From Candidatus Absconditicoccus praedator (GTDB lineage: Bacteria > Patescibacteriota > Gracilibacteria > Absconditabacterales > Absconditicoccaceae): a stretch of 32,000 nucleotides of DNA. Within the stretch, counting starts at the first letter, position 1. Every line of letters begins with the position of its first letter. The notes beneath the pieces are model-generated. The model saw only the letters and a list, made by a program, of their open reading frames with translations. It was not told the origin of the DNA and searched no databases. The position numbers and the translations under genes were made by a program. The DNA is taken from assembly GCF_021057185.1 (NCBI RefSeq), contig NZ_CP054059.1, positions 1,020,001-1,052,000 on the forward strand. Direction: 5' to 3'. Positions 3,133 through 32,000 of the stretch are shown here, piece by piece.

Positions 3133-3194
3133 ATTGATTTTATTATAAAAAAAGCTATAAGTATAGCATTTAAAATAATAAAATATATTTAAAT

Positions 3195-4376
3195 ATGGAA
3201 GGAATTAATGTAAAACAGATATTAGAAATAATACCTGATGAATTTATAGAAAAATTAGAAAAAAACTGTAATATAAATCATCAAGTTAAAAAAATGAGTT
3301 GAAAGGTAATGTTTAAACTGTTATTAATGTGAATATTAGATTGAGATAATTTAACACAAAGAACATTAGCATCAATATATAACAGTCCTGAATTTACTCA
3401 ATATGCAGATAAATGAGAACAACAAACAAGACATACAACTATAAGTGATAGACTTATAAACATGGATTATAAATTCTTTGAGAAATTGTTTGAAGAAATA
3501 AGTAAAAAGTTTGAAAAAGTATTAAAAATATGAGCAACAAAAATGAAGGTGGTGCTAAAGAGATTTGATTCTACATTAGTTTGAATATCAGAAAAACTAC
3601 TTAAGTTTTGAATAAAAGCATGAAGTCCAGATGAAAGACATATAAAATTTACAGTCTGATTAAAGTGATTGTTGCCAAATAAAGTTTCAGTTTATGAAGA
3701 GCAAAAAGCAAGTAGTGAAGATGTAGCATTATGAGAAACTATTTTACAAGAGACAACATCTAAAAATCAAATATTATTATTTGATAGATGAGTTCAAAAA
3801 AGAGAAACTTATTCAAAGCTAATAGATAAAAATACAAATTTTGTAAGTAGATTAAGACAAAATACTAAGTATCAAGTTATAAGACAAAATAAAGAAGTAG
3901 AATGAATAAAAGTATGAAATTTAGTGTTAGAATGTGATGAAATAGTAAAATTATATTGAAAATGATGAGATATATTAGAAAAAGAATTAAGATTAATAAA
4001 AGCAATAAATCAAAAAAATGAAGTATTTTTATTTATAACAAATATGTATAATTTCACAGCAGAAGAAATAACAGAATTTTATGCAAGGAGATGGGATATA
4101 GAAGTATTTTTTAGATTTATAAAACAAGAATTTTGATTTAGTCATTTTGTATCAAGATCAAAGAATTGAATAATGAATATGCTATATATGACACTAATAA
4201 CATCAATACTTGTAATAGTATATAAATCAAAAAACAGTATAAAATCCTACAAAGAAGCTAAAAGAAGATTTATTGCTGAATTAGATGAATTAATTTTAAT
4301 TGAGCTAGCAATAGCAATCTGAGGAGATGTTGATCTTCTTAAAAAGAAATATTTAAATTATTATAAATACTCTTAA
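3195..4376 (+). CDS. DDE transposase (DDE_Tnp_1, IS4/IS5 superfamily)
   Basis: 393 codons from ATG 3195 to TAA 4374. The C-terminal signature YARRWDIEVFFRFIKQEF is the Y-x2-R-x3-E-x6-K motif of IS4/IS5 DDE transposases. By my reading about 20 in-frame TGA codons are read as Gly. Confidence 0.85.
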
Positions 4377-7362: not shown

Positions 7363-7710
7363 TTACTGATTTTCACTGTTTTGTGTGTCTTGATGGTCGT
7401 TGTTTGTTTCTGATTCAGTATCAGTTGGTTCTTCTTCTTGTTCAGGCTGATCCAAATCCAGTTCTTCATCTTGATCTATATCTACTTCACCATCTATTTC
7501 TCCTGGGTCTAAATCATCTATTTCTAATTCTTCTCATGGTTCAAACTCTATTTCTTCTCATGGTTCAAACTCTATTTCTTGTTGTTCTTGAGGTTGTTGA
7601 GAATCATCAAAAAGATATATTAATCAAGATCACAACAATCAAAATATCAATATCATTATAGTAAATGCTATAAATATTATAAGTATTTTATTTTTTTTCT
7701 TTCTTGCCAT
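7363..7710 (-). CDS. small N-terminally anchored, extremely acidic protein with an internal tandem duplication
   Basis: ATG 7710..7708, TAA 7365..7363, 115 codons. The protein begins MARKKKNKILIIFIAFTIMILIFGLLGSGLIYLF (a TM segment) and continues with an E/D/Q-rich tail. It contains a perfect 24-bp tandem repeat. The track ORF 7383..7661 (+) is its antisense shadow. Confidence 0.6.
7531..7578. repeat. Perfect 24-bp tandem duplication (2 units) inside the acidic-protein gene
   Basis: TTCTCATGGTTCAAACTCTATTTC occurs at 7531..7554 and again at 7555..7578. It encodes EEIEFEPG twice on the minus strand, with Gly = TGA. Confidence 0.95.
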
Positions 7711-12601: not shown

Positions 12602-14089
12602 CTACTTGAAATCTTGTATTATATTTTGATAATCATTGTATGCTTGTTTATTGTTTTTTAGTAATTTTTTAAAATTGTTTATAGCATAAATTACTGTTGC
12701 ATGATTTTTTCAACCAAAATAATCTCATATTTTTTCAAGTGTCCATCAAAAATGTTCTTTTGCAATATACATAAGCATTTGTCTTGCCATACTAACTTCT
12801 TTTTTTCTACTTTCTCATTTTATATCAAATATTCATATATCATAATAATTTGATACATATTCTACTATTTTTCAAAAGCTTTTGGTGTTTTTGGTATTTT
12901 TGTTTTCTGCATTTATTATGTTTACTTGTTGTTGCTCTGATTTGTCTATATTGTATCACAATGTTTGTAATGCTTCAAATATATCTTTTTCTCATATCTC
13001 TTGTTCTAACAAATTTTTTCTTGTCATTATTAAGTTTATTGCTCATTCAATTTCTCTAATATTGTCTTGTATGTTTTTTGCAAGAGTTTCACAAAGGCTT
13101 TGATCAAGTTGTTCTCATTTTTCCCTAAGCTTAGAATGTATTATAGCCAGTCTAGTTTCAAAGTCAGGTTTTTTAACATCTGTCACAAGTCAAAGTGCAA
13201 ATCTGCTTTTCAATCTTGCTTCCAGCAGATCAAGTTCTTTTGGTGGACGGTCAGAAGATATTATGATCTGTTTTTGATTTATATGAAAATCATTAAATAT
13301 ATTATGGAAAATTTCTTGAGTTTTTTCTTTGTTTGCTAAGAACTGAATATCATCAATGATAAGAACATCCACTTGTTCAAGTTTTTTCATCAAGTTGGAG
13401 AGAGTATTTTTTCTTATTGCCTCTACTATCTCATCAATAAGCTTTGTGCTTGGTAAATATACAATTGTTTTTTCGTTTTGAGTTTTCATTATATAGTTTC
13501 AGATAGCCTGCAGTAAGTGAGTTTTACCAAGTCATACATCTCAATATATAAAGAAAGGATTGTAAACTTTTCAGGGTGATTCTGATATTTTTTTGCTTGC
13601 AGAATATGCCAACTGATTGCTTCATCAAACTACAAAATTTTCAAATTTGTATCTTTGATCAAAAAGTATTCCAAAGAAATTTTTTAATTTTTCTTTTGTT
13701 TTTTTATCAATATTTTCTGGTGGAGTGTTTTTTTTGTTGTTGGTTCCCAAAATTTTTTGTATATTGATTTGTAGCTTATGTTTTCAGCTTTGAAATTTAC
13801 TATAAACTGCAATTTTTATTTTGAATCAGTCACTATAAACTTCTTGTATACTTGCTTCAAGCTCTTTTTTAAAAAATTTTTTTACTTGTGATTGAATAAA
13901 TTCATTTGGCACTCATATATATATTTCTTTTGTTTTTTCTTCAATACTCAAAATTCAGCATTTTCAAAGAAAAGAATATATTTTTTTGGGATCTTCTCTT
14001 GTTGATATATTTTTAATAGTTTTTTCCCGTAGGTTTTTAAGAAATTCTACTTTTTGAGTATCATAGTTTTCTACTGTATCAACAAGCAT
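12602..14089 (-). CDS. dnaA: chromosomal replication initiator protein DnaA
   Basis: ATG 14089..14087, TAG 12604..12602, 495 aa. Walker A GDVGLGKTHLLQAI lies at 13543..13520. It contains DVLIIDDIQFL, SSDRPPKEL and RLKSRFAL. The domain IV motif is ARQMLMYIAKEHFGWTLEKIGDYFGGKNHATVIYA. Confidence 0.95.
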
Positions 14090-14118
14090 TTAATTGCAGT
14101 TATTTTTTAAAATTTTAA

Positions 14119-15192
14119 TTATTCTTCTTTCACAAAAGCAAGTTGTTTTGCTTGATTTTCCATCATCACATCATTTATAATTTTATCTATTTCTCAGTTC
14201 ATTATTTGAGGTATATTAGACCAAGATTTTTTAATACGATGGTCTGTTATTCTATCTTGCGGGAAGTTGTAGGTCCTAATTTTTTCAGATCTGTCTCAGC
14301 TTCAAATTTGATTTGCTTTTTCTTCCTGAATTTTTTCGTGATGTTGTTTTTGTTCTATTTCATAAAGTCTTGATTTTAGAACCTGAAATGCCTTTTCTTT
14401 GTTTTGTAGCTGTGATTTTCATTCTCAAATAGTTACTATAATTCCAGTTGGTTTGTGAATTAGTCTAACTCAGGTTGCATTTTTATTTGCATTTTGTCAT
14501 CAAGCACTACTTGCTGCAAAAGTATGTAATTCTACATCATTTTTATTTAAATTGACTTGTACATCTTCAACTTCTGGCATTATACTTACTGTAACAGTTG
14601 ATGTATGAACTCTTCATCAGCTTTCTGTCTCTGGTATCCTTTGGACTCTATGAACTCAACTTTCAAATTTTAGCTTTGAGTATACATTTTCTCAGCTTAT
14701 TTTGATTATACATGATTTTAATCATCATATATCACTAATTTCTTCTTCAATTATTTCAGTTTTCCATCAAGCATATTCGGTATATCTTAGGTACATTCTC
14801 ATAAGTTCTAGAGCAAACAATCCAGCTTCATCTCATCATGCTGCTGGTCTTATTTCCATAAAAATATTTTTTTCATCATTTGGATCTTTTGGAAGCATAG
14901 CTATTTTAAATTTTTCATATATATCTTCTAGCATTTCTTCAGATTCTTGTTTTTGTGCTTTTGCCATTTCAATTAAATCTTCATCTTTTTCAGTATTTAT
15001 CATCTCTTTTGCCTCTTCTAGGCTATTGTGATATTTTTTGTAGTCTTGATATAGATTGTATGTTGGTTCAAGATTTGTAAGTTCTTTATTTAATTTTATC
15101 ATTTTTTCATTATCAGAAAAAACCTCTGGGTTACATAGTTCTTCTTTGATTTGATTATATCTTTTTTCTACTTCTTCAAGTTTTTGCCACAT
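14119..15192 (-). CDS. prfA: peptide chain release factor 1 (UAA/UAG-specific)
   Basis: 357 aa. RF1-type tripeptide region RIPETESGGRVHTS (PxT class, not the SPF of RF2). GGQ is encoded TGA-TGA-CAA at 14502..14494. It contains EIRPAAGGDEAGLFA. TAA at 14121..14119. Confidence 0.95.
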
Positions 15193-15206
15193 TATTTTTG
15201 GTTAAT

Positions 15207-18140: not shown

Positions 18141-18482
18141 GGTAACCTCAAGTTAGGCAATACACCTAAAGATAAATTAGGTGAGGAAAGTCCCAACACC
18201 AATAAATAGCTAATAGATAACATCTATTGGATCTTGGAAAAGCAAAGGAAAGTGCCACAGAGACGAAAACTAATCTTTAAAAATTAAAGATAAAAGGTGC
18301 AACGTGAGGGTGTTCCATTAATATGGGCTACCTCTGCTGAACCTATAAGATTTATAGGTCAGTGGTAAACCCTAGCTGGTGCAAGCTGACTCATTCTTGT
18401 GAGGTAGTGCTTGATGTCTGTAATAAACAGATCTAGAGAAATTTTGCCAATACAGAATTGGGCTTATTGACTTGAGGTTATT
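18141..18482 (+). ncRNA. rnpB: RNase P RNA, bacterial type A
   Basis: Universal P4 strands GAGGAAAGTCC (5') and ACAGAATTGGGCTTAT (3') are present. So are AGTGCCACAGAGACG (J11/12-like) and GGTAAACCC. P1 pairs TAACCTCAAGT (18143..18153) with ACTTGAGGTTA (18470..18480). This is the most GC-rich non-coding island in the window. Confidence 0.9.
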
Positions 18483-19746: not shown

Positions 19747-19774
19747 TTGACAAAAAAATAAAATTCTGTATAAT
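19747..19774 (+). promoter_or_regulatory. sigma70-like promoter (TTGACA-16 nt-TATAAT)
   Basis: TTGACA at 19747..19752, a 16-nt spacer, and TATAAT at 19769..19774, about 30 nt upstream of ATG 19805. Confidence 0.55.
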
Positions 19775-19804
19775 TATACTGTATTTAAAAAATAAAAATA
19801 AAAA

Positions 19805-20359
19805 ATGGAAACATTATGAAATAATTATGAAAAATCAAACGAATTGGCAGAAACAAATGAAAGAGCTGAAATACAAGAGGGTCTAAATCAAATAGATTCA
19901 AACTTTAGGTTTGAGCAAGTTGGTAATAAATATCTTTTGGAGTATGATTGAGTTGCCTTAGATATGGAGATAAACTGAAAAGAACAACTTATTGCTATGG
20001 CTTCTCTAACAAAATGGATTTTGGATAATCATAAATGAAGTCATGAAGGAAATGAATATTATGTAGACCATGATTGAAATAGTTTTGATATATTTGTAGA
20101 TAATAGACCTTTGAAGTTATTGGATACAGCAATTTTATCAGAGTCATCTCTTATGGAAAATTTATGATTAGAACATCAAAATATTCGCAATCAAACTACA
20201 AAGGTAGCAGAGTATATGGCACAAAGAGAAGATATAGTAAGATCATATGTTGATTTTTTAAATGATGTTACAAGCTATGAAAAAGAATTGGTAGAAGTAA
20301 GATGAACATACTGATTAGAAATATCTAATCTTAGGAGGGAGATTACTAAGGCAGCTTAA
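19805..20359 (+). CDS. hypothetical protein (orphan, monocistronic unit)
   Basis: 184 codons from ATG 19805 to TAA 20357 with TGA=Gly. It has its own consensus promoter upstream and a hairpin terminator downstream. No family recognised. Confidence 0.55.
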
Positions 20360-20369
20360 ATATATTTAA

Positions 20370-20396
20370 AAAAGAGTGAAAAAATCACTCTTTTTT
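20370..20396 (+). terminator. rho-independent terminator-like hairpin
   Basis: AAAAGAGTGA (20370..20379) pairs with TCACTCTTTT (20385..20394) around an AAAAA loop, followed by a T-run. It lies 11 nt after the stop at 20359. The stem is AT-rich, so stability is modest. Confidence 0.5.
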
Positions 20397-20467
20397 AAAA
20401 TTAAAATTTCTTGCTATTTAATTTAAAATGATTAGTATAAAAAGGATTTATACTATATTATTAATCT

Positions 20468-21118
20468 ATGAAAAAAATTTTTAAACATATAATGTACTGG
20501 CATTTTTTCTTGCAGGTAAAACTTCTAAAACTATTAAAGAGACCTTATGTAGTTTTGGTTGTATGAGTTAGTCAAAAATCAATGATTAGAGAAAAATTAA
20601 AAGATGAAGCACTGAAGTCGTGAATTAAAACAAGAAAAAAATATATGCCATATAATACTTGGTTTGGTGTAGTTTTGGACTTTTTGGATGTGCCATCAGC
20701 TTATTCAAATATCAAATGATGGATATGAATTTATTTTTACTCATGGTATAAGTTTTTTAAAAGCTTAATTAGCTTTCCTGATGTGTTGTTTTTGAGTGGG
20801 GGAGTAGATGAGGATTGAGAAGCACAAAAAATACTTAGGTCTATATCTCCTGATATGATAGTATTTACAGATATTAATACATCTTTTGCAGATGATTATA
20901 CATCCATGGATGTCATAGAAAAAGAGTTTTGATGTTTTATAGATTATCTAAATAAGAAATCTCAAAAAGAAACTCTACAATATGAATATACATGATTAGA
21001 TCAAATTGTTGAAATTATAAACTCAGATAAAAAATATATTTGAGTGATAGATAAAGATGATGAAAGATTAGTTTCATTATGAAAAAAGCTTATAAATAGA
21101 ATTTTTATCAAACTATAA
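20468..21118 (+). CDS. hypothetical protein, possibly a degenerate Mur-ligase-like central domain
   Basis: 216 codons from ATG 20468 to TAA 21116. YVVLVVGVSQKSMIRE occupies the position of the Mur ligase P-loop (I.VTGTNGKTT) but lacks GKT. DVLFLSGGVDEDGEAQKILRSISPDMIVFTDINTSFADDY resembles the Mur E..-...-P..-.TN...DH region without DH. The similarity is weak. Confidence 0.5.
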
Positions 21119-21125
21119 AAAAAGT

Positions 21126-22415
21126 ATGAAAGTATGATTGGTATGAAGAACAAATGTAGGAAAATCTACACTTTTTAATAAACTTATATGAACACATAGA
21201 TCTATAGTTACAGATATATCTTGAACTACTAGAGAAAGTTTTTCGGAGTTAGCAAATATTTGAGATGTTAGCTTTCTGTTATTCGATTCTCCTTGATTGG
21301 ATACAGAAAATGAAAAACCTATAATCAAAGAAATCCTACAAAACTGTGATGTGGTAATTTTTATGGTAGATGCAAAAGATTGAATTACCCACAAAGATCA
21401 GGAAATACAAGAAATGATTTTTAAGTCTTGAAAACAAAAACAAACACTTTTACTTATTAATAAAGTAGAATGAGATTCTACCAGTATTCAGGCGGATGAG
21501 TTTTATCAGTTTGGTTTTCAAAATATACATAAAGTTAGTGTTTTACAACAAATATGAACAGATTTTATTAAAGATTTTATAGTTGATCAATTTAAAACAA
21601 ACAAATTAAAATCATATGACAGTCAAGTTCAGTCTATACCATTGGCTATAGTGGGTAGACCAAACACTTGAAAATCTACTTTGTTAAATAAGTTTGCTCA
21701 AAAAGAAGTAGCGAAAGTTGAAGATAAACTTTGAACTACATTGGATTACTTGAAAACTTATATAAACTATAAATGAGAAGATTTTGTTTTGTATGATACT
21801 GCTTGAATAAGAAAAAAATGAAGAACTGTATGATTAGAGAAGATAGCTTTTAGTAAAACTTATAAGCTTTTGGAACTAGCTCAACCTACTACAGTTATAC
21901 TATTGGACATGCAGGAATGATTAACACATACTGATAAAACTATACTTGGTAAGATTTCTAAATTGAAGGTTCCAGCAATAATAGCTGTAAACAAAACTGA
22001 CCTTTTTTCAAAAAAAAGTATAGATAATTTTATAAAATTTTGTACAAGAAATATAGAATTTGCAAAACATATTCCTATAATTCCAATATCATCAAAAACT
22101 TGATATTATATAGATAAGATACTAGATTTTGCTCAATCTATTTATCAGGAAAACAATAAAAAAATACAAACATCTCAGCTAAATAATATTCTCAACAAAG
22201 CTTGGATACACAATCCTCCAAGGTTTCCAAAAAATAAGATTTGTAAATTTTATTATGCAACACAAACCGATATTGCTCCACCAAGATTTGTAGTTTTTGT
22301 AAATGATGAAGAAAAAGCTAATTTTTCATTTAAAAAATGGATAGAAAATAATATTAGAAAAAATTTTGGATTTATATGATGTTTTATTGATATCAAGTTT
22401 AAAGGCAGATCTTAA
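21126..22415 (+). CDS. der: ribosome-associated GTPase Der (EngA), tandem GTPase domains plus KH-like C-terminus
   Basis: 429 aa. First P-loop GRTNVGKST (21144..) and second P-loop GRPNTGKST. Also DSPG / DTAG, NKVE / NKTD, and the C-terminal PPRFVVFVN. Many P-loop Gly are TGA. TAA at 22413. Confidence 0.93.
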
Positions 22416-23440
22416 TAAAGATCTTTTATTACAACTTTGATGGGTCAAGAATTTTTTGCTTTTTCTTTTGTTATTTCAAAAAGATTTTTTGCATATATTC
22501 AAGGTAGTCTAATGCATCAGTTTGATCTTTTCTCTCAGTCAGTTGTTCAAGCATGCAAAAAGTATGGTGAACGATAACTTCATATTTGTATTGAATAAGC
22601 CATGGGAGCATCCTCATAAGAAAATGAAGTTTTATCTGCTATAAAATTTCAGCTAGTGGTATACACTCATTCTGGTGTTTTAGAGTCTTTTGTTCATACT
22701 GATGTTATTGAAGCAAATTTTAGATTTCATTCTTCAAAATACAAAACAGCATTTTCTCAATTTTTAATTGTAGTGACAACAATTACTGTGTCATTTTCAT
22801 CTATATGTGATTGAAACTTTGTGTATAAACCTAGAAATTCTGAAAGGTTTTTTCATGTATGTTTTAATATTTCTGGATTAATCAAAGGTATATTTAATTT
22901 TTCATAATTAAATATCGATGAATTTTTATCTAAAGGATTAACATCTTTATTTAATTGTTGTAATCAATTATTTTTTCAGTATCAAATATGTTCTCATAAT
23001 CTTCTTCAATGAAGTTCTAAAAGGGGGTCTTGTCGGAGAGAAGTAGTTTCAAATTCAATTACATTTAATATATCTTTTTTTTGTTCTTTATCCAAATTAT
23101 TATATTTTTCATAAATATCTTTAAGTACTATTTCTGACCTTTCATCTGTTTCTTCAGATACTTCAATTTCTTCGTAATCGTCATATTGTTCAGGAGTTTC
23201 AATGTCGTGTTCTCAAGGTATTTGTTTTGTACCTTCTTTATTGTCTTTTGGTTGTTCTTGAGTAGGTGAAACTCCTAGTTCTGAAAATCCAATAACATCT
23301 ATATTATTATCATTTTGAGTTTCTTTTGATGTAGTTCAACATCACGAAGATAAAACTGCAAGTAAAATTGCAGAGTTTAATAATATATTTTTTTTATGTA
23401 TTTTTTTTCATCCAGTATCTTGGTCTAATTTCTTTCTCAT
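22412..23440 (-). CDS. lipoprotein with C-terminal L,D-transpeptidase (YkuD) catalytic domain
   Basis: 342 aa from ATG 23440 to TAA 22414..22412. Signal peptide with lipobox-like AVLSSGC. An acidic linker follows. YkuD signature YFLHAGTTDGEKRSNGCIRLP, with the catalytic Cys codon at 22516..22514 and the preceding Gly as TGA. It overlaps the der stop by 4 nt (convergent). Confidence 0.82.
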
Positions 23441-23588
23441 AGTTTAAGTGTTAGATAAGTTTTTTAAAATTTAGTAATACAAAAAATAACTTCAATTTTA
23501 AGTAAATTTTAAAAATGATAAAAGAATCTTTGATTCTTAATTGGCATAAAGATATATAATGAAAAAAGAAGTTAAGGCAATCTTTTTT

Positions 23589-23618
23589 ATAAAAAAACCA
23601 TCTCTATCAAGATGGTTA
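23589..23618 (-). terminator. rho-independent terminator downstream of ybaB
   Basis: On the minus-strand transcript the sequence is AACCAUCU-UGAUAG-AGAUGGUU followed by UUUUUAU. The arms lie at 23596..23603 and 23610..23617, 10 nt after the ybaB stop. Confidence 0.6.
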
Positions 23619-23627
23619 TGTAAAAAC

Positions 23628-23978
23628 TTATTTTAATCAAGGCATATTTGGCATTCATCCTCATCATCCTCATCACATCATAGATGCTATATCATTTGGA
23701 TCAAATCATAGTGTGTCTTTAGTTTTTTGCATAGCAACCTCTTGAGCTTTATTTTGTCACTTTTCTATAGATGCCTTGATTGCTTCTTCTAAAGATTCTT
23801 TCATATTTGGATCCAAAAGGCTTTCATCTTCTATTTTTACATTCTTAATTTTCATTTCTGCAGTGATATCTATAAGAACTCATCATTCTCTAGCTCTAAT
23901 TACAGTATTTTTAAGTGTTTCTTGTAATTTTTTGTATTTGTCATACATTTGTTTCATATCTCAAAGATTTCCAAACAT
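23628..23978 (-). CDS. ybaB: YbaB/EbfC family nucleoid-associated DNA-binding protein
   Basis: 116 aa: MFGNLGDMKQMYDKYKKLQETLKNTVIRAREGGVLIDITAEMKIKNVKIEDESLLDP...LEEAIKASIEKGQNKAQE... with a terminal GGGGGGGMPNMPGLK tail. This matches the YbaB pattern throughout. Confidence 0.88.
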
Positions 23979-24007
23979 TTTGTTGTTTTATATAATAAAA
24001 ATAAGTA

Positions 24008-25285
24008 TTATTTATCTTTTCAAGAATCTGATTTATTTGATTCTGATTTCTTTTTTGTTGAATTGGCATTTTTTCATTTTTTGTCGGAGTTATTATTTGA
24101 TTCAACTAGTTTTTCATAAACTTTCTTTTCTGCATCAAGTGGAGTTTTCCAGTCTATTTGATCTGATATTCCAAGCTGATTTGAAATTTCCTTTAATATA
24201 AAGAATTTTCATAAACTTTCTTTTGAAGATTTTCTTACATCATTATGTATATTATTTCTTTCTTCTTCTGATATAGAATCCATATATTTTTTAAGTCATT
24301 CTTCTCATCCAAATCTTTTCTCAAGCGATTTCATTCTTGTTTTTACTTCTTCATCTATTATAGTCTTTGGAATCACAACTTCCATACTTTCTTCTGCAGA
24401 TTTTATAAAGTTTTCTATTTGATTTACTAATCAGTTTTCAAATTTTTGTTTTTGAACAATTTCAGTGATTCTTTCTCTTAGTTCATCAAGGTTTTTTACC
24501 TCATTATTGAAAAGTTCTTGTATTTTTTCATCTGTCATTTCAGGAAGTTGAACTTTTTTAATTTCTATCATTTCAAATTTTATATTAGTTGGATTTCATT
24601 CCTTGTGGTAATGAAGTATGTGAGGTAGTTTATCATGCTGATACTCTGAGTTGAAAACTTCTCATTTTTTCTTTCCTACAAATAATTCTTGAAGTATATG
24701 ATGTTCATCCATATCTTCTTTTCATATAAATGCTGTACCATTATCAAGTTTTTGTTCGTTTTCATCTAAAAAGTCAAATTTTACTTTAGCTACTGTATCC
24801 TGTGTCATTTCTTCTACATCATCATATTGCGCATATTGTTTTTGTAGGTTTCATAGAGTTTGTTGTATTTCTTCTTCTGTTACAGAATCATCTACTTTTT
24901 CTATTTTTGCTGCTTTCCAATTATCATTTTTTACTTCTACTTGTGGATATTCATCAAGATTGAATGTGATAGTAGTATTTTTATCATCTGATTTGTCGTT
25001 CACATTGTATATTTGTCAAATAAATTTTATATTTGGATTTTCTTCAATTATTTTTTTAAGTCACTCATTTACAATTTCTTCATATATTCCCATTTTAATG
25101 TATTCTGGATTTGCTTTTTCTTCAACCATTTCCAAAGGTGCATGACCTTTTCTAAATCCTGGTACTTCCATATCTTGTTGAATTTTTTTAAGTATTTTCT
25201 CTTTGTATTTTGAACTATCTTCATTTGGTATAGTTATACTTATCTCATAGTTTGAATTATTTCATTTTGTTAGCTCGTATTTCAT
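24008..25285 (-). CDS. tig: trigger factor
   Basis: 425 aa. N-terminal ribosome-binding signature VPGFRKGHAP. Overall TF architecture with a Lys/Ser-rich tail. ATG 25285..25283, TAA 24010..24008. The track ORFs on + in this span are antisense shadows. Confidence 0.88.
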
Positions 25286-25448
25286 TCTTTTTTTTAGTAT
25301 CTAAATAAACCACTATAATAAGGAAAAATTTTATATTTTCAATAATTTTTTAATTTATAATTAATCTATTTATAGTTGATTTTTTAAAGCAATTTTTTAT
25401 AAATGATGTTATCTGTTTTTTTAATTCATAAAAAAAGTAAAACAAAAA

Positions 25449-27515
25449 ATGAAAAAATGAATAATCTTATTTATTTGATTTATTCTAGTATCTTCTATAT
25501 TGTTATATAATACACAACAGCAAGAATATACGAATCTAGAAGATTGAACTAAAGCAATAGAAAAAATATCAGAAAAAAATGAAATAGACCTTAATAATTT
25601 TTTAAAGTTATATGAAGATAATGAATTTGATAAAGTAAGAGTTATTGACTGAAAAAAACTACACTGACTTATTGAAATAGAAATTATAGAAACTACTCAT
25701 ATAATTGGTTATAAAATTCCTCAAGTAAATTATAAAAAATTCACAACAAAAAAACCTGAAGAAACTACAATTTCGGAATTATGAATTGATCCAAGAAAAG
25801 AAACAAGTATTACGGTAAAATATGATGAAAGATGAGTCTTAGCAAGTGTGTTTTTGGAAACTTTATTGCCATTACTGCTTTTGGTGTTGTTGCTGATTTT
25901 CCTTTTTAGGCTTTTTGCTCCAAAATGAGGTGGTTGATTTCCATTCTCTTCTACACAAGCTTGAAAACTACAACAAAAAGACGATATAAAAGCAAAATTC
26001 AAAGATGTTGCATGAATGGATGAGTCTAAGAATGAATTGGAAGAAATAGTTGACTATTTAAAAAACCCTACTAAATACAAAAAAGTATGAGCAAAAATAC
26101 CAAGATGAGTTCTATTGTATTGACCTCCTGGAAGTGGTAAAACATTGGTAGCAAGGGCTGTTGCCTGAGAAGCAGATGTTCCTTTCTTCTCTTCTTCTTG
26201 AAGTGAGTTTATGGAAATGTTGGTAGGTATGTGAGCAGCCAAAGTTAGAGAGCTTTTCAATAAAGCCAAAAATGCAGCACCTGCTATAATATTTATAGAT
26301 GAAATAGATACTATTGGAAAAAGAAGGTGATCGGGACAAACCTGATGACATCAAGAACAGGAGCAAACACTGAACCAAATACTTACAGAAATGGACTGAT
26401 TCAACAAAGATACAAATGTAATTGTGTTGGCTGCCACTAATAGGCCTGATATGTTAGATAAAGCATTGTTAAGACCTTGAAGGTTTGATAGAAAAGTTTA
26501 TGTATGAACACCTACATTAGAAGAAAGAATTGATATACTGAAAGTTCATACTTGAGACAAAAAATTAAGTAAATCAGTTGATTTAGAAACAATAGCTAGA
26601 AGAACAAGTTGATTTGTATGAGCTGATCTAGAAAATCTTGCCAATGAGGCAGCCATAAAAGTAGCAAGAGAAAGAAGAAAAATCCTTACAAACGAAGATT
26701 TTGAATATGCATTGGAAAAGGTTATTATGTGACCTGAGAAAAAAATTAAAACTATGAAAGAAAAAGAAAAGCAAATTATTACATACCATGAGTTATGACA
26801 TGCAGTTACAGCATATATGCTACCAAATGCAGATCCAGTAGAAAAAATAAGTATAGTTAGTAGATGAATGGCATTGTGAGTGACTTGGATGATGCCACAA
26901 GAAGACACATACTTGAACAGTAAAGCAAAGTTTCTTGATCAACTTGTGACATTACTTTGAGGAAGAGTTGCTGAAGAATTAATCTTTGGTAAAGAAGAAA
27001 TAACTACAGGAGCATCAAATGATTTTGAGAAAGTTACTCAAATTGCTTCTGATATGATTATGAAATACTGAATGGACGATGAACTTTGAACAATTAACTA
27101 CAAACAAAGAGAACAACAAGATATGCAAGTATACAGACCTTATAGTGAAGAAACAACTAAAAAAATTGATGAAAAAATATTTAATATCGTGAATGAGGCT
27201 TACGAAAAAGCCAAGAAAATACTTCAAGACAACATGGATACAATCGAAAGATTGGCAAAACTTCTATATGAAAAAGAATACATATCCAAAGAAGAGTTTG
27301 AGGAAATTATGCAGAAGCCTGAAAAAGCTGATGAAATGTATGAAGATTTTATAGAAAAGCAAAAAGAAAAATCAAAACAAGATAAACAAGTACAAGAAGA
27401 GGAGGAAGAAGACGACGAAGATACAGAAGAAGATAACAAAGAGAAGGAAAAAAACAGGCTGGAAGATATGCTTGATAGGTTCTTGAAAAAATGAAAAGAT
27501 TCAGATAACAAATAA
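25449..27515 (+). CDS. ftsH: ATP-dependent zinc metalloprotease FtsH with long acidic C-terminal extension
   Basis: 688 aa. Two N-terminal TM segments. Walker A GPPGSGKT at 26121..26144 (first Gly TGA). Walker [32 protein letters not shown]. Zinc site HELGHA at 26787..26804 (Gly TGA). Track ORF 27123..27494 is its C-terminal fragment. TAA at 27513. Confidence 0.96.
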
Positions 27516-27519
27516 AAAA

Positions 27520-29016
27520 ATGTCATACAAACTGGTAGTAAAAGATGCTTTTTGGCAGATTCTTTGAAGAGTGCTAAGTGCTGTAGCCTGACTTTTAGTG
27601 ATAAAAATGATAACTCCTTATCTTTGACCTCTTAGATTTGGAGATTATTCTACAATATTGAAATATTTTGCTGTATGGGCAGCATTAGCAGATTTTGGAT
27701 TGTATGTTATTGCATTAAGAAAACTTGGACAAATCAAAGAAGAGTCATTTGAAAAACTTAAAACAGTCTATTGAAAGATAGTAGCTACCAGATTTTTTAT
27801 GATATTTGTTGTTTATACTCTTGCTATATTTGTAGCATATCTTATACCCGCATATACAGAAAATCCATATTTAATATGGTGACTACCTCTTGGTATGATG
27901 TTTAGTGCAAGTTTCATGGTTGCAGGGATGCTTCAGGCGCCTCTTCAGCTCTATTGGAAAATGAAGCATCTTTGTATATGACTTGTGCTATCAAGATCTG
28001 CACAGCTTATCATGTTGGTGACTGTGTTATATATATTGTTTCCATGACAAGAGTTTGATTGAAGTACATTATCAATATTTGTATTTTGTTTGATAATGGC
28101 ATCTGTGGTATTGTCTTGAATTGTTCAGATAGCATATGTACATCGAGTATGAAGAAAAATAATACCATTAAACCTAAAATTTGATAAAGAATTTTCCAAA
28201 GATATAATATTTTCAAATCGACAGTACTGAGTTGCATACTTTTTGAGTAGTTTTCATACTTTGGTAGTGTTAATAATTCTTTCTATCTTTTTTCCAACAG
28301 AACAAAATTTTGCTTATGTATGAGTATGGGCATTAGCTCTTGCTTTGATGGAAATATTGTTGGTAGTGCCTCAAAGTCTTGGGAATGCATTGATTCACAA
28401 AATATCTTCTAAATCAAAAAAGCATATATTAAAAAGCTTTGGATATATGATTATTTTTACTATATGGATAGGTATAGTTTTTCTTATTAATTTTGCTGTT
28501 TTTTGAACACAAATCATATATTTTGTTGGATGAGAAGACTACCTTTGAAATTGATATATATGAGGCGATGTTGTTCTTGCTTTTTTATGAGTAGTCTTAG
28601 TGCTTAGTTTTGTGAAGCAAATTTTTAACTACGTTTTTGTAATAAACAATCTTCAAAATAAGCTTTTAATAATAAATTTTTTATGAGTATCTATCTGACT
28701 GATTGTATGATTACCATTGATACTTCAGTATAATTTAATATGAGGAATAATTACTCAAATATTATTAGAGGTTTTATTTGTATTATGAGCTATATTTATT
28801 GCTTGGAAAAATAAGATTTTGCCAACAATTAATCGAAATTATTATCGAACAGTTATTTTTATATGATTTGTAATATTAATTTTATGATTTTATCTTGAAT
28901 CAATGATTGGTTATGCACATTTTCTAAGTTTTATTATGATGGTTGTTATTCTTAACTCAGTCTTACTAGTTTTATCTTATTTTCCAATAAAAAATATTAT
29001 GAAACAAATTTATTAA
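27520..29016 (+). CDS. MOP-superfamily polysaccharide/lipid-linked oligosaccharide flippase (Wzx/MurJ-like)
   Basis: 498 aa from ATG 27520 (4 nt after the ftsH stop) to TAA 29014. About 12-14 hydrophobic segments. N-terminus KDAFWQILGRVLSAVAGLLVIKMITPYLGPLRFGDYS is typical of Wzx/MurJ-like flippases. The subfamily cannot be assigned by eye. Confidence 0.65.
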
Positions 29017-29548
29017 GTTTTTCTTTTAAGTATTTAACTTTTTTAATATTTGAATCAGGTAGAGAATTTTCTATATATTCTAAATATCAAAAATAAAAAC
29101 TTATTGACTCTTCATCAATATAAGGAATACTTTTTTCAATAAAATTTAAAAGTTCATAATCATTTTTATTGTTTGTTTCTTCGATAAATTCTTTAAAACT
29201 TGGAAGTAATGATAAGTCTATCATGTTTCTTTCTGACTCAGCCATGTTTTGTTGTATTCTTTCTAAAATATTTTTTTCTCTCATCCAGAAATAATCAAAG
29301 AGTTTATAATAAAGTTCATTTGCTTTTTTAGTATTTCATTCTAAGTTTTGGTTTTTTATTATTTTCAGTACTGCTTTAACTGCTAAAGAAATTAGATTTT
29401 TATTGTTTCATACAATATTAAGAATTTCATCAAAATTTATACTTCAGTTTAAATCTAAATTTTGTATTAATTCATCTCTAAATTGGGTTAAAGGTTTTTC
29501 CGTACAAATTCATTCTCATTCTCTTCTTTCTGGAGTGATTAAAGTCAT
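28952..29548 (-). CDS. hypothetical protein (orphan)
   Basis: ATG 29548..29546. It extends track ORF 29087..29284 in both directions through TGA codons. The first TAA in frame is at 28954..28952 (checked codon by codon), so its last 65 nt overlap the convergent flippase gene. No family recognised. Confidence 0.5.
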
Positions 29549-29715
29549 TTTTTATTTTTTATTTTTTAAATTATATATTAAAATGATAAATAAAATTTTA
29601 AAAAATTCAAATTTTAAGGCCAAAAAATATAAAAAACAAGCAATTAATCTTAATTTTTATTTAGTTTTTAAAATATGGCTAACTCAAAGTATAAACTCAT
29701 ATTTTAATTAAATAA

Positions 29716-29744
29716 TTGACAATTTAAGCCTTTTTGATTAATAT
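29716..29744 (+). promoter_or_regulatory. sigma70-like promoter (TTGACA-17 nt-TAATAT) for the giant ORF
   Basis: TTGACA at 29716..29721, a 17-nt spacer, and TAATAT at 29739..29744, 58 nt upstream of ATG 29802. It sits in the longest (about 250 bp) and most AT-rich intergenic region of the window. Confidence 0.5.
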
Positions 29745-29801
29745 ATTGAATACTAAATTAACCATATTTTTTTTATTAGCTATTTACTTTAAATAATATA
29801 G

Positions 29802-32000
29802 ATGTGATTAGGAGTTTTTGAAAATAGACAAACAAACAGTGAAGCTCAAAATATTCTATGAATTGGAGAAGATGAAACTTGAGTTTTGTTAGAAGTTAGA
29901 CAAGAACTAACATCAACCTTACTGGAAGAGAGGTTTATGGGAAGTGAGAAAGAAAAAGTAAAGCATATACTTGAAAAATTAAAAAATATTATAGGTGTTA
30001 AAAAGATGAAACATTCTATTACTCTTAATAGATTTTTGTTTCATATTTCTATGTTTATAAATCCAAAGATACTAAATGACTACAAAAGAAATCTTAATGA
30101 ATTATTTTATATAATATCAAACGATGAAACTGTGTATAACCTTTTTATGAAGCAGTCAAAAATATTACTTAATATATTAAATGAAGAAGTTGGTGATAAT
30201 GAAACTCTTTTTAATAGATCTCAATTTCCAGATAGAAAAAATATGATTTTTTTAGAATGATTATATTATTGAATCCTAAACATTAAAGAAGCTTTAGAAT
30301 ATGTTTTTTATATCAAAAGCACAGATAAGGCTTATTGTGAATACTATGAGCAACACAAAGATAATAAGCTAATTACAAATATAATAAATGAAATAGATTC
30401 TTTTTTAGAAGAAAATGAAGTTAGCTTGGATAAAGATAGTAATGAATATTATGAGCTTATTTTGCATTTTTATATGCTTAGAATACCAAATAAAAGCACA
30501 TCATCTAAATATAAACATATAATACTTAAAAATCTTCAAAAAAAAATTGGTATAAGTTGAATTAATCAAAATTTTTCAGGGCAAAATGTAGGCAGTAAAT
30601 TTCAGAAAAACTTGTACAAAACTTGAAGCAAGATATGAAATAAACAAAGAAGAGATACAAATATTACTAACTTTTTAAATGATTTGAAAATTTTAGGAAG
30701 AAAACAACAATATTATAAAAAACTATCTCAAAATCTAAAACAAAATGATTGTGATGGTCTTTTGATTGAGGAGTTTTTGGATATATTTTTTGATTCATTA
30801 TTTGAAAGCAATGTTGATCTGGATTTTGTGGGTGTTCTTTATATGGCTTTTAAAGAGAAAAAAATATCCAATGATGATAATATCAGGATAAGCTCTATAT
30901 ATAAAAAATATAAACAGTGAAAAATAGAAAACACTTATGATCTTCAAAACTTTTTAGGTTTTCTTTTGTTAGCAAGTAAAAATCCTGAACTTCAGTCTTT
31001 TTCAGAAGAAAACAGGGACTACTTGTTTTCTGAGTACAGTGCTGAATTTATTGAGGAAAATGTTAACTTTTTCTTGAAGTTCAAAGACAATGTATGTTTA
31101 ATAACTCAAATATTATGAGCTGATTTTGTACAAAAAAATATTGAAAATATTCAGTGATTTAAAAATATTTCTTCTTTGTTAAAAAAAGTAGATATAGATT
31201 TAATTGGAAATAAAAATTTGTATTATTTATTGTATGTAATTTTTTGGGAAGAACAAAACCAAGTTAGCAAATATGTTGAAGAATTTAGAGAATACAAACA
31301 AAATTTAATAAGACTTAAATCACAGGAAGATTTATTTTTACAGGAGACACAAAATCCTATAGATATTGGTTTTTGGGAGTTTTTGCAAACTGATCTTGAT
31401 TATGAAAACTTACTTAATCTTGAATTTGCTATACAAGAACTAGTAGAACTAAACAATAAAATTAAAAATTTTTTATCAGATAAGCAATTTTCTAATGAAA
31501 TAACTCATAGAAGAAAAATATATGATATATCAGTAGAAAGGCTTATTTATTATGTATATTTTTGTGAAAATTTTGACTGCAGTGAAATAAGTGAAAGAAC
31601 TCTTCAAAATATATTTTTATTGCAGGAAGATAAATATCATACAGTTGTAAATAATATATTAAGTTTGGCAAACAATACAGCATTAAAAAAGCTAAATCAT
31701 CTAAGTAAAAATGAAATTTTATATATTTTTTATCATAATTTTGCAGATATATATCATTTATTAGATAATGACTTTGAAAATATACAAGATATCCTAAGTT
31801 GATTAAATAAAACTAGCTTTGTGGAAAAATATCAAAAAGAAATAGAAGAAATATTAGATTCTACAAATATAGATGTTACATTAATTTTTGAATATTTTGA
31901 AAATCTAGAAGAGGAAATAGATTGGTTAGAGAGGCTATTAAAATTGTTTAAGTTCTTAAAGAAAAATAATTTATTGCCAATAATAGAAAGTAGTTTTCCA
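29802..32000 (+). CDS. large hypothetical protein, N-terminal 733 codons or more, continues beyond window
   Basis: ATG 29802 is preceded by an in-frame TAG at 29799. Track ORFs 29886..30260, 30684..30920 and 31176..31802 are all in this frame. The gaps between them contain TGA but no TAA/TAG (checked codon by codon), and the frame is still open at 32000. The protein is rich in N/K/E/L/F/Y and looks helical. No motif recognised. Confidence 0.7.

What the first reader, a model, noticed from the sequence alone, without database searches (positions are those of the whole stretch)
29549..32000. Promoter-driven giant ORF (733 codons or more, open at the window edge) with no recognisable domain: best candidate for something undescribed
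The largest and most AT-rich intergenic region in the window (about 250 bp) contains T6-A-T6-A-T6 tracts at 29548..29567 and a TTGACA-17-TAATAT promoter. Downstream of it a single frame stays open from ATG 29802 to the window end. It fuses three apparently unrelated track ORFs through TGA-Gly codons.

The 733 visible residues are N/K/E/L/F/Y-rich and look all-helical. I can identify no nucleotide-binding, nuclease, helicase, methyltransferase or transport motif, so any catalytic domains must lie beyond base 32000.

It is transcribed divergently from another orphan (28952..29548). Very large lineage-specific proteins are a hallmark of episymbiotic CPR-type bacteria and are candidates for host-interaction or defence machinery. 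Standard-code annotation would miss this one completely.
Basis: partly seen in the sequence, partly recalled or inferred. Interest (0 to 1): 0.7.

Follow-up and report, generated by a model that had tools for sequence, protein, structure and literature searches.

The report
Long orphan protein ending in HicA RNase
The open frame is a real gene of the predatory bacterium Candidatus Absconditicoccus praedator (UGA read as glycine). It encodes a 930-residue protein: about 860 residues of helical sequence with no detectable relatives, then a small HicA toxin-type RNase domain just past the window edge, so it is an unusual fused variant of a known toxin family and not a new kind of giant protein.

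Summary
The ORF is real. From ATG 29802 to the window end there are 733 codons with no TAA or TAG. The other two forward frames have 57 and 63 such stops. Twelve in-frame TGA codons are read as Gly; code 25 was verified on RF1.

The identical gene exists in public data: UFX83462.1 / WP_231177876.1, Ca. Absconditicoccus praedator. It is 930 aa and ends 594 nt beyond the window. RefSeq names it a "type II toxin-antitoxin system HicA family toxin".

Residues 868-923 are a full HicA domain: Pfam 55 bits, the AF2 model matches solved HicA structures at TM 0.66-0.85, and the catalytic His is conserved. Residues 1-733 matched only the protein itself among 1.84 billion representative proteins and no family library; Pfam finds nothing significant in 734-867 either. 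Low-confidence models show residues 1-841 as short helices. There is no TM helix, signal peptide, Walker motif or internal repeat.

No HicB lies within 10 kb. The next gene is a PilT-like ATPase with its own promoter. The TTGACA-17-TAATAT promoter is credible.

Best reading: a single-gene fused HicA RNase whose helical N-terminus regulates it in cis. This resembles the published fused HicA classes 13 and 14 but is much longer and unrelated in sequence. The protein is not giant and is already annotated. Interest is moderate to low.

The parts
29802..32000 (+). First 733 of 930 codons of the gene (UFX83462.1 / WP_231177876.1). It continues 594 nt beyond the window to a TAG at extended coordinate 32592-32594. 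The visible part is the orphan helical N-terminal region. The linker (aa 842-867) and the HicA domain (aa 868-923, extended nt 32403-32570) lie outside the window.
   Evidence: Open frame and TGA positions. A 100% identical 930-aa protein. Locus L001 overlaps window 19802-32000 with 0 mismatches. Pfam HicA_toxin at 55.3 bits. No homologue of aa 1-733 in 1.84e9 representatives.
29716..29744 (+). Probable sigma-70-type promoter, TTGACA-17-TAATAT, 58 nt upstream of the ATG.
   Evidence: 10 of 12 matches; the pattern TTGACA-N16-18-TAnnnT occurs four times in 42.6 kb. All four are in the 8.6% of sequence that is intergenic, and all lie 30-58 nt before a + strand start.
29549..29801 (.). Divergent 253-bp intergenic region, 13.0% GC.
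   Evidence: No Rfam family or tRNA here.
29548..29567 (.). T6-A-T6-A-T6 tract. On the minus strand it is the A-rich leader directly before the ATG of orf183.
   Evidence: A-rich leaders precede many of the gene starts in this genome, and no Shine-Dalgarno sequence is seen.
28997..29548 (-). Divergently transcribed orphan gene (183 aa, 'hypothetical protein'). It shows weak similarity to aa 454-534 of the large protein.
   Evidence: the only hit is itself; 30.8 bits, against a maximum of 25.0 in 300 shuffles and 26.9 for the best unrelated real protein.

Best explanation
Shown: this is a genuine, apparently independently promoted gene of Candidatus Absconditicoccus praedator (Absconditabacteria/SR1, genetic code 25). 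It encodes a 930-aa cytoplasmic protein built from three parts. (i) An ~840-aa region predicted as many short alpha-helices; residues 1-733 were searched exhaustively and matched nothing but the protein itself. (ii) A ~25-aa basic, probably disordered linker. (iii) A complete C-terminal HicA domain (dsRBD-like alpha-beta-beta-beta-alpha fold) that keeps the catalytic histidine, H890.

Inferred mechanism: the HicA domain is a ribosome-independent RNA endonuclease, as in HicAB toxin-antitoxin systems. No HicB antitoxin is encoded nearby, so the large helical N-terminal region would hold the RNase inactive in cis and release it on some signal such as phage infection or stress. That would make this a single-chain 'fused toxin-antitoxin/sensor' of the kind proposed for Gerdes' HicA classes 13 and 14 and demonstrated for CapRel.

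Confidence differs by layer. Identity and architecture: about 0.95. Cis-regulated RNase mechanism: about 0.45.
For: - Gene reality and code.
- Full length and identity.
- HicA domain: Pfam PF07927 at 55.3 bits against a cut-off of 27, covering 1-56 of 58 profile positions. PHROG 353 'toxin', 2e-13. PDB HicA sequences 1whz, 4c26 and 6g26. AF2 model of aa 689-930 with pLDDT 77-87 over the domain. The top five Foldseek PDB hits are all HicA: TM 0.66-0.85, rmsd 1.3-3.2 A. H890 sits in the catalytic His column, which is the H24A position of 4c26.
- No HicB or other antitoxin family within 10 kb on either side.
- Own promoter upstream; the next gene has its own TTGACA-17-TATTAT promoter.
- The sequence before internal Met866 is GC-rich, unlike the A-rich leaders that precede many of the real starts, which argues against a separate hicA cistron.
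- Atypical Gly codon usage fits an accessory or recently acquired gene: TGA is 15 of 39 Gly codons here against 589 of 734 in 36 neighbouring genes, p = 4e-8.
- Precedent for helical-N-terminus plus C-terminal HicA fusions, and the cis-regulation proposal: PMC10865869.
Against: - There is no evidence of RNase activity, toxicity or expression.
- The N-terminal region has no homologues, so there is no conservation signal and no confident structure (pLDDT 37.6). Its role as regulator or sensor is pure inference.
- The neighbourhood is housekeeping (FtsH, MurJ-like, PilT, MurA), not a defence island, and PADLOC finds nothing.
- The Gly of the usual G-S-H motif is Thr here, with a one-residue insertion, so full catalytic competence is not certain.
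- No terminator-like site follows the gene, so co-transcription with pilT cannot be excluded.
Confidence: 0.5

Rival explanations
1. Predation or competition effector. The protein would be a polymorphic-toxin-like weapon whose C-terminal HicA RNase is delivered into the Halorhodospira prey, possibly with the help of the type IV pilus machinery encoded next door. The long N-terminus would serve as the delivery or adaptor part.
For: - The architecture resembles polymorphic toxins: a C-terminal toxin domain after a long N-terminal region and a flexible basic linker.
- The organism is an obligate epibiotic predator (PMC12428579).
- The gene immediately downstream is a PilT-like T2SSE ATPase, followed by a cNMP-binding protein and a membrane-anchored protein.
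- The absence of an immunity or antitoxin gene is tolerable if the toxin acts only in another species.
Against: - No signal peptide and no TM segment (maximum KD19 hydropathy 1.21).
- No known trafficking domain such as PAAR, Rhs, LXG or MAFB by Pfam or NCBIfam.
- pilT has its own promoter.
- No downstream immunity gene and no cassette array.
- No homologues in other predatory Absconditabacteria.
Confidence: 0.15
2. Non-toxic RNA-binding protein. The HicA/dsRBD-like fold would be used only as an RNA-binding module at the end of a helical scaffold, with a regulatory or RNA-processing role and no toxin-antitoxin logic.
For: - HicA has a dsRBD-like fold (PMC10865869).
- The neighbourhood is housekeeping.
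- There is no antitoxin.
- The G of the G-S-H motif is replaced.
- The linker and domain region (aa 801-900) carries net charge +7, while aa 401-800 is acidic.
Against: The catalytic His and the second conserved His-Pro are retained. The domain scores as a full-length HicA toxin. A species-restricted orphan with atypical codon usage is an unlikely housekeeping factor.
Confidence: 0.2
3. Evolutionary accident. A former small hicA gene (start at Met866) would have become fused in frame to an upstream young or de novo ORF by loss of a stop codon. The N-terminal 865 aa would then have no function, or the whole gene would be decaying.
For: - A Met lies two residues before the Pfam HicA start (aa 866).
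- The N-terminal region has no homologues anywhere.
- Its composition simply mirrors an AT-rich genome.
- No HicB remains.
Against: - An 865-codon stop-free run in 25% GC DNA, where the other frames carry about 8% stops per codon, is not expected without selection.
- Codon usage fits coding.
- The promoter is placed for the long ORF.
- The sequence context of Met866 is unlike real starts.
- The predicted structure is regular and helical, not disordered.
Confidence: 0.1
4. Spurious AT-rich open frame, or an artefact of choosing the wrong genetic code.
For: None beyond the low-complexity composition.
Against. In addition, two assemblies are identical over the 12.2 kb they share with the window.
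Confidence: 0.01

Closest known systems
HicA toxins of HicAB type II toxin-antitoxin systems (Pfam PF07927; structures 6G26, 5YRZ, 4C26, 4P78, 1WHZ)
   Same: The C-terminal 56-60 residues match in sequence (55 bits) and in fold (TM 0.66-0.85). The catalytic His and the His-Pro motif are conserved.
   Different: Canonical HicA is a stand-alone protein of ~55-70 aa encoded next to hicB. Here the domain is the last 7% of a 930-aa protein and no HicB is nearby. The Gly of the G-S-H motif is replaced.
[quoted passage not shown]
   Same: Both are monocistronic, with a predominantly alpha-helical N-terminal region followed by a canonical C-terminal HicA domain. Cis-regulation of the toxin has been proposed for this class.
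   Different: Class 13 proteins are 340-440 aa; this one is 930 aa. Its N-terminal 733 aa have no detectable sequence relatives at all, so they appear unrelated to the class 13 N-termini. No CPR members were found in the held part of the paper's supplementary tables (the stored file is cut before the fused-class sheets).
Gerdes Class 14 SMC-HicA fusions
   Same: A large, mostly helical protein with a C-terminal HicA domain.
   Different: No Walker A or B motif and no SMC, AAA or NERD domain. Predicted helices are 27 aa or shorter, with no long coiled-coil arms.
CapRel(SJ46)-type fused toxin-antitoxin defence proteins
   Same: The proposed logic is the same: one polypeptide carrying a toxin domain plus a regulatory or sensor domain that autoinhibits it.
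   Different: The toxin fold differs (RelA/SpoT-like versus HicA) and the domain order differs. No homology exists, and the function here is untested.
Polymorphic toxin systems (Zhang et al. 2012, PMC3482391)
   Same: A C-terminal nuclease-type toxin domain after a long N-terminal region and a linker.
   Different: No secretion or trafficking domain, no signal peptide, no adjacent immunity gene and no alternative toxin cassettes.

Membership tests
HicA toxin family (PF07927) | Sequence match to the family profile above the curated threshold, covering the whole domain | tested here: met
   55.3 bits against a cut-off of 27, aa 868-923 covering profile positions 1-56 of 58. PHROG 353 'toxin' at 2e-13.
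HicA toxin family (PF07927) | dsRBD-like alpha-beta-beta-beta-alpha fold | tested here: met
   The AF2 model of aa 689-930 has pLDDT 77-87 over the domain. The top five Foldseek PDB hits are all HicA: 6g26, 5yrz, 4c26 and 4p78, with TM 0.66-0.85.
HicA toxin family (PF07927) | Catalytic histidine at the start of beta-1 (H24 in B. pseudomallei HicA) | tested here: met
   H890 falls in the column of the GSH histidine, which is the Ala of the H24A mutant 4c26. The preceding Gly is Thr here.
HicA toxin family (PF07927) | Small stand-alone protein (~55-70 aa) | tested here: not met
   The protein is 930 aa.
HicAB type II toxin-antitoxin module | Adjacent hicB antitoxin gene (RNase-H-like fold with or without an HTH/RHH domain) in the same operon | tested here: not met
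   No HicB family in any gene within 10 kb on either side. The low-confidence models show no beta-rich HicB-like segment in aa 1-867.
HicAB type II toxin-antitoxin module | RNA cleavage and growth inhibition neutralised by the antitoxin | not testable with these tools
   This needs expression and RNase assays.
Fused HicBA, Gerdes Class 13 | [quoted passage not shown] | tested here: met
   definition from PMC10865869.
Fused HicBA, Gerdes Class 13 | Size of 340-440 aa and an N-terminal region homologous among class members | tested here: not met
   The protein is 930 aa. phmmer of aa 1-733 against 1.84e9 representatives finds only itself. A direct comparison with class 13 sequences was not possible because those sheets are truncated in the held supplement.
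SMC-HicA, Gerdes Class 14 | SMC ATPase head (Walker A/B) and long coiled-coil arms | tested here: not met
   No Walker A or B motif. No SMC or AAA Pfam hit. The longest predicted helix is about 26 aa, from a low-confidence model.
Polymorphic toxin systems | N-terminal secretion or trafficking domain or signal, plus a downstream immunity gene | tested here: not met
   No such domains. No hydrophobic N-terminus or TM segment. The downstream gene is a PilT-like ATPase with its own promoter.
CPR 'giant' surface proteins | Very large size (1392-4163 aa for the ten longest Vampirococcus proteins) with membrane or surface localisation | tested here: not met
   The protein is 930 aa with no TM segment or signal. 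Comparison values come from PMC8080830.
Genetic code 25 (UGA = Gly) genome | In-frame TGA at conserved Gly positions of universal proteins | tested here: met
   In RF1, 13 of 17 TGA positions align with Gly, including GGQ, and none with Trp. ORF tiling rises from 7.7 kb to 44 kb when TGA is treated as sense.

The most novel reading that the evidence does not exclude
The ~860-aa orphan region is a previously unseen sensor or delivery module. On this reading the protein is either a single-chain abortive-infection RNase of a CPR bacterium or a HicA-armed effector injected into the phototrophic prey with the help of the adjacent pilus machinery. Either case would be a first functional link between a HicA RNase and the predatory, episymbiotic CPR lifestyle.
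Probability: 0.12. Interest if true: 0.7.

Novelty: new variant of a known kind. Interest (0 to 1): 0.33.

Why it matters
If the fused protein is active, it extends the catalogue of single-chain HicA systems to a much larger architecture that is unrelated in sequence. It would also do so in one of the very few cultivated CPR predators, where the hypothesis could be tested in co-culture.

It is also a reminder that the RefSeq name 'HicA family toxin' describes only 6% of the protein. In practical terms the finding is a lone orphan with no conservation signal, so by itself it opens no long-standing question.

Tried and rejected
- Family libraries: Pfam, NCBIfam, PADLOC and PHROGs on the 733-aa and 930-aa proteins gave nothing outside the HicA domain. 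The weak E2F_TDP, ALC and SctR hits (E 0.009-0.09) were rejected as noise.
- Homologue searches: the word-indexed search and the exhaustive phmmer search found only the protein itself. A search with the HicA region alone returned nothing, so the lengths of related HicA proteins could not be surveyed.
- Related loci: scans of genome, metagenome and viral contigs with the protein found no relative.
- Contig lookup: the exact-sequence lookup of P0001 failed. It worked through the code-4 translation P0003.
- Structure: the full-length AF2 model is unusable for fold search (pLDDT 37.6), so no fold search of the N-terminal region was attempted.
- Internal repeats: none by self-BLAST.
- Synteny: ten related loci anchored on the MurJ-like gene keep FtsH-MurJ but nothing downstream. 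A 745-aa ORF in the same position in L009 turned out to be FtsK, and its neighbour is a methionine aminopeptidase.
- Literature: the original A. praedator paper is not held.
- Rejected readings: spurious ORF, code 4 (TGA = Trp), SMC-like ATPase, membrane or giant surface protein, and defence-island context.

Full report
**Observation.** The window is 23-33% GC. It tiles into genes only when TGA is treated as a sense codon: ORFs of 100 aa or more cover 7.7 kb with three stop codons and 44 kb (both strands) with TGA as sense.

In the RF1 gene (14119-15201, minus strand), 13 of 17 TGA positions align with Gly of a solved RF1, including both Gly of the GGQ motif. None aligns with Trp. FtsH, Der and DnaA motifs agree. 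The genome therefore uses code 25.

In the finding's region, ATG 29802 directly follows a TAG. The frame then stays free of TAA and TAG for 733 codons up to base 32000, with 12 TGA codons. The other two forward frames have 63 and 57 TAA/TAG. Codon usage scored against the window's conserved genes is positive only in this frame. The ORF is real and far beyond chance.

The T6-A-T6-A-T6 tract (29548-29567) and the TTGACA-17-TAATAT site (29716-29744) are both present. The generic promoter scan is not enriched over shuffles (13 sites against 10.8 +/- 3.4). However, the strict pattern TTGACA-N16-18-TAnnnT occurs only four times in 42.6 kb. All four are in the 8.6% of sequence that is intergenic, and each lies 30-58 nt upstream of a same-strand gene start. 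The promoter call is therefore credible.

Three details were wrong:
- The spacer is neither the largest nor the most AT-rich in the window.
- The frame joins four standard-code ORFs of 50 aa or more, not three.
- The divergent orphan spans 28997-29548, not 28952-29548.

**What the gene is.** A database search returned one protein, 100% identical over all 733 residues. It is 930 aa, from Candidatus Absconditicoccus praedator (UFX83462.1 / WP_231177876.1), and is named 'type II toxin-antitoxin system HicA family toxin'. A Logan assembly of SRR15691272 carries the same gene translated with code 4. That entry allowed the DNA to be fetched as locus L001, whose first 12,199 bases equal window 19802-32000 with no mismatch. 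The gene ends with TAG 594 nt beyond the window, so the protein is 930 aa and not giant.

**The C-terminus.** Residues 868-923 match Pfam HicA_toxin over the full profile, at 55.3 bits against a cut-off of 27. They also match PHROG 353 'toxin' and the solved HicA proteins 1whz, 4c26 and 6g26. An AF2 model of aa 689-930 reaches pLDDT 77-87 over this domain, with alpha-beta-beta-beta-alpha topology. Its five best PDB matches are all HicA toxins, at TM 0.66-0.85. In a multiple alignment, His890 occupies the catalytic His column, which is the H24A position of 4c26. The downstream His-Pro is invariant, while the Gly of the G-S-H motif is Thr here.

**The N-terminus.**
- Residues 1-733 have no family match in Pfam, NCBIfam or PADLOC; scans of the full-length protein against Pfam, PHROGs, NCBIfam and PADLOC add nothing for residues 1-867.
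- There are no homologues other than the protein itself in a word-indexed search of 5.8 billion clusters. The same holds for an exhaustive phmmer search of 1.84 billion representatives.
- Scans of genome, metagenome and viral contigs found no relatives.
- There are no internal repeats, no Walker A or B motif, and no TM segment or signal peptide (maximum 19-residue hydropathy 1.21).
- The full-length AF2 model is unreliable (pLDDT 37.6). It consistently shows short helices of 27 aa or less through residue 841 and a coil linker at 842-867.
- 'All-helical orphan' is therefore supported. SMC-like coiled coil and HicB-like alpha/beta fold are not.

**Context.** Upstream lie FtsH, a MurJ-like flippase and the divergent 183-aa orphan. 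Downstream, after 128 bp carrying its own TTGACA-17-TATTAT promoter, come a PilT-like T2SSE ATPase, a cNMP-binding protein and a membrane-anchored 489-aa protein. MurA and other housekeeping genes follow.

No HicB or other antitoxin family lies within 10 kb on either side, and this is not a defence island. In ten related Absconditabacterales / 'Peribacteria' MAG loci, FtsH-MurJ synteny is kept in eight. Nothing downstream of murJ is shared, and no homologue of the target or of orf183 is present.

The gene is compositionally odd. Only 15 of its 39 Gly codons are TGA, against 589 of 734 in 36 neighbouring genes (p = 4e-8). This fits an accessory or recently acquired gene. Starts in this genome lack a Shine-Dalgarno sequence and many follow A-rich leaders. 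The Met two residues before the HicA domain (aa 866) follows a GC-rich stretch, which argues weakly against an independent hicA cistron.

**How it probably works.** HicA toxins are ribosome-independent RNA endonucleases normally held in check by HicB. This is established knowledge, summarised in PMC10865869. Here the domain is intact and there is no HicB, and the gene has its own promoter, although no terminator-like site follows it.

Gerdes (2024) catalogued 14 HicA contexts. Class 13 is a monocistronic fusion of a predominantly alpha-helical N-terminal region with a C-terminal HicA, 340-440 aa long. Class 14 is an SMC-HicA fusion. Gerdes proposed that such fusions are autoinhibited and triggered, by analogy with CapRel.

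The present protein has the same logic. It is more than twice the class 13 size, lacks the class 14 ATPase, and has an N-terminus unrelated to anything. I therefore read it as a new variant of the fused-HicA kind: a single-chain RNase whose helical N-terminus is regulator or sensor. That mechanism is inferred, at about 0.45.

Rivals:
- A delivered predation effector (0.15). The architecture and the pilT neighbour favour it. The lack of any secretion feature or immunity gene counts against it.
- A non-toxic RNA-binding scaffold (0.2).
- A stop-loss fusion of hicA to a functionless young ORF (0.1). The 865-codon stop-free, codon-adapted frame makes this unlikely.
- A spurious ORF, which is excluded.

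**Verdict.** It is half wrong: the protein is not giant, is not unannotated, and is not an undescribed kind. Novelty is 'new variant of a known kind'. Interest is moderate to low (0.33), because there is a single sequence, no conservation signal and no functional data.

Noticed in passing
window 29802-32000 (and L001 10001-12793): The gene uses TGA for only 15 of 39 Gly codons (38%), against 589 of 734 (80%) in 36 neighbouring genes (Fisher p = 4e-8). This is the lowest share of any gene with 10 or more Gly codons. It suggests a young or horizontally acquired gene that is only partly adapted to code 25.
   Followed up: partly
window 28997-29548 (-) versus target aa 454-534: The divergent 183-aa orphan shows weak similarity to a segment of the large protein: 29% identity over 94 aa, 30.8 bits. 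The maximum in 300 shuffles was 25.0, and the best unrelated real protein scored 26.9. This may be a shared helical module or may be compositional noise.
   Followed up: partly
window 18145-18482 (+): Bacterial RNase P RNA class A (Rfam RF00010, 120.6 bits) fills most of the 669-bp gap between 17819 and 18487. About 326 bp upstream of it remain without any feature called here.
   Followed up: no
window 19747-19774 and 29716-29744; L001 12860-12888 and 17918-17947: TTGACA-N16-18-TAnnnT occurs four times in 42.6 kb. All four are intergenic and lie 30-58 nt before a + strand start codon. This looks like a strong canonical sigma-70 promoter consensus in an Absconditabacterium.
   Followed up: yes
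window 3174-4376 (+): An IS4-type DDE transposase (PF01609, 74 bits) with 20 in-frame TGA codons. This mobile element appears fully adapted to code 25.
   Followed up: no
window 7363-7710 (-): A small gene for an N-terminally membrane-anchored, very acidic protein with a tandem EIEFEPGE repeat. Several frames on both strands are open here, so the region first looked like a 402-bp intergenic gap.
   Followed up: partly
L001 12922-16232 (just beyond the window): A PilT-like T2SSE ATPase, a cNMP-binding-domain protein and a membrane-anchored 489-aa orphan form an overlapping three-gene cluster directly downstream of the HicA-fusion gene. The cluster has its own promoter.
   Followed up: partly
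window 25449-29016; loci L002-L011: The FtsH / MurJ-like gene pair is conserved in 8 of 10 related MAG loci (MurJ-like 42-69% identity). Synteny ends immediately downstream of murJ. In the closest relative (L009) the position is occupied by methionine aminopeptidase and FtsK.
   Followed up: yes
gene starts from window 19805 onward into L001 (19 starts): No Shine-Dalgarno-like sequence was seen before any of the 19 checked gene starts. Many starts are preceded by A-rich runs such as 'aaaaaATG'.
   Followed up: partly
window 28997-29016: The MurJ-like gene (+) and orf183 (-) converge and overlap by 20 bp at their 3' ends.
   Followed up: no
window 12602-15201 (-): dnaA and prfA (RF1) lie in a tightly packed run of minus-strand genes. 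There is no sizeable non-coding region next to dnaA, so an origin of replication is not obviously adjacent to it.
   Followed up: no
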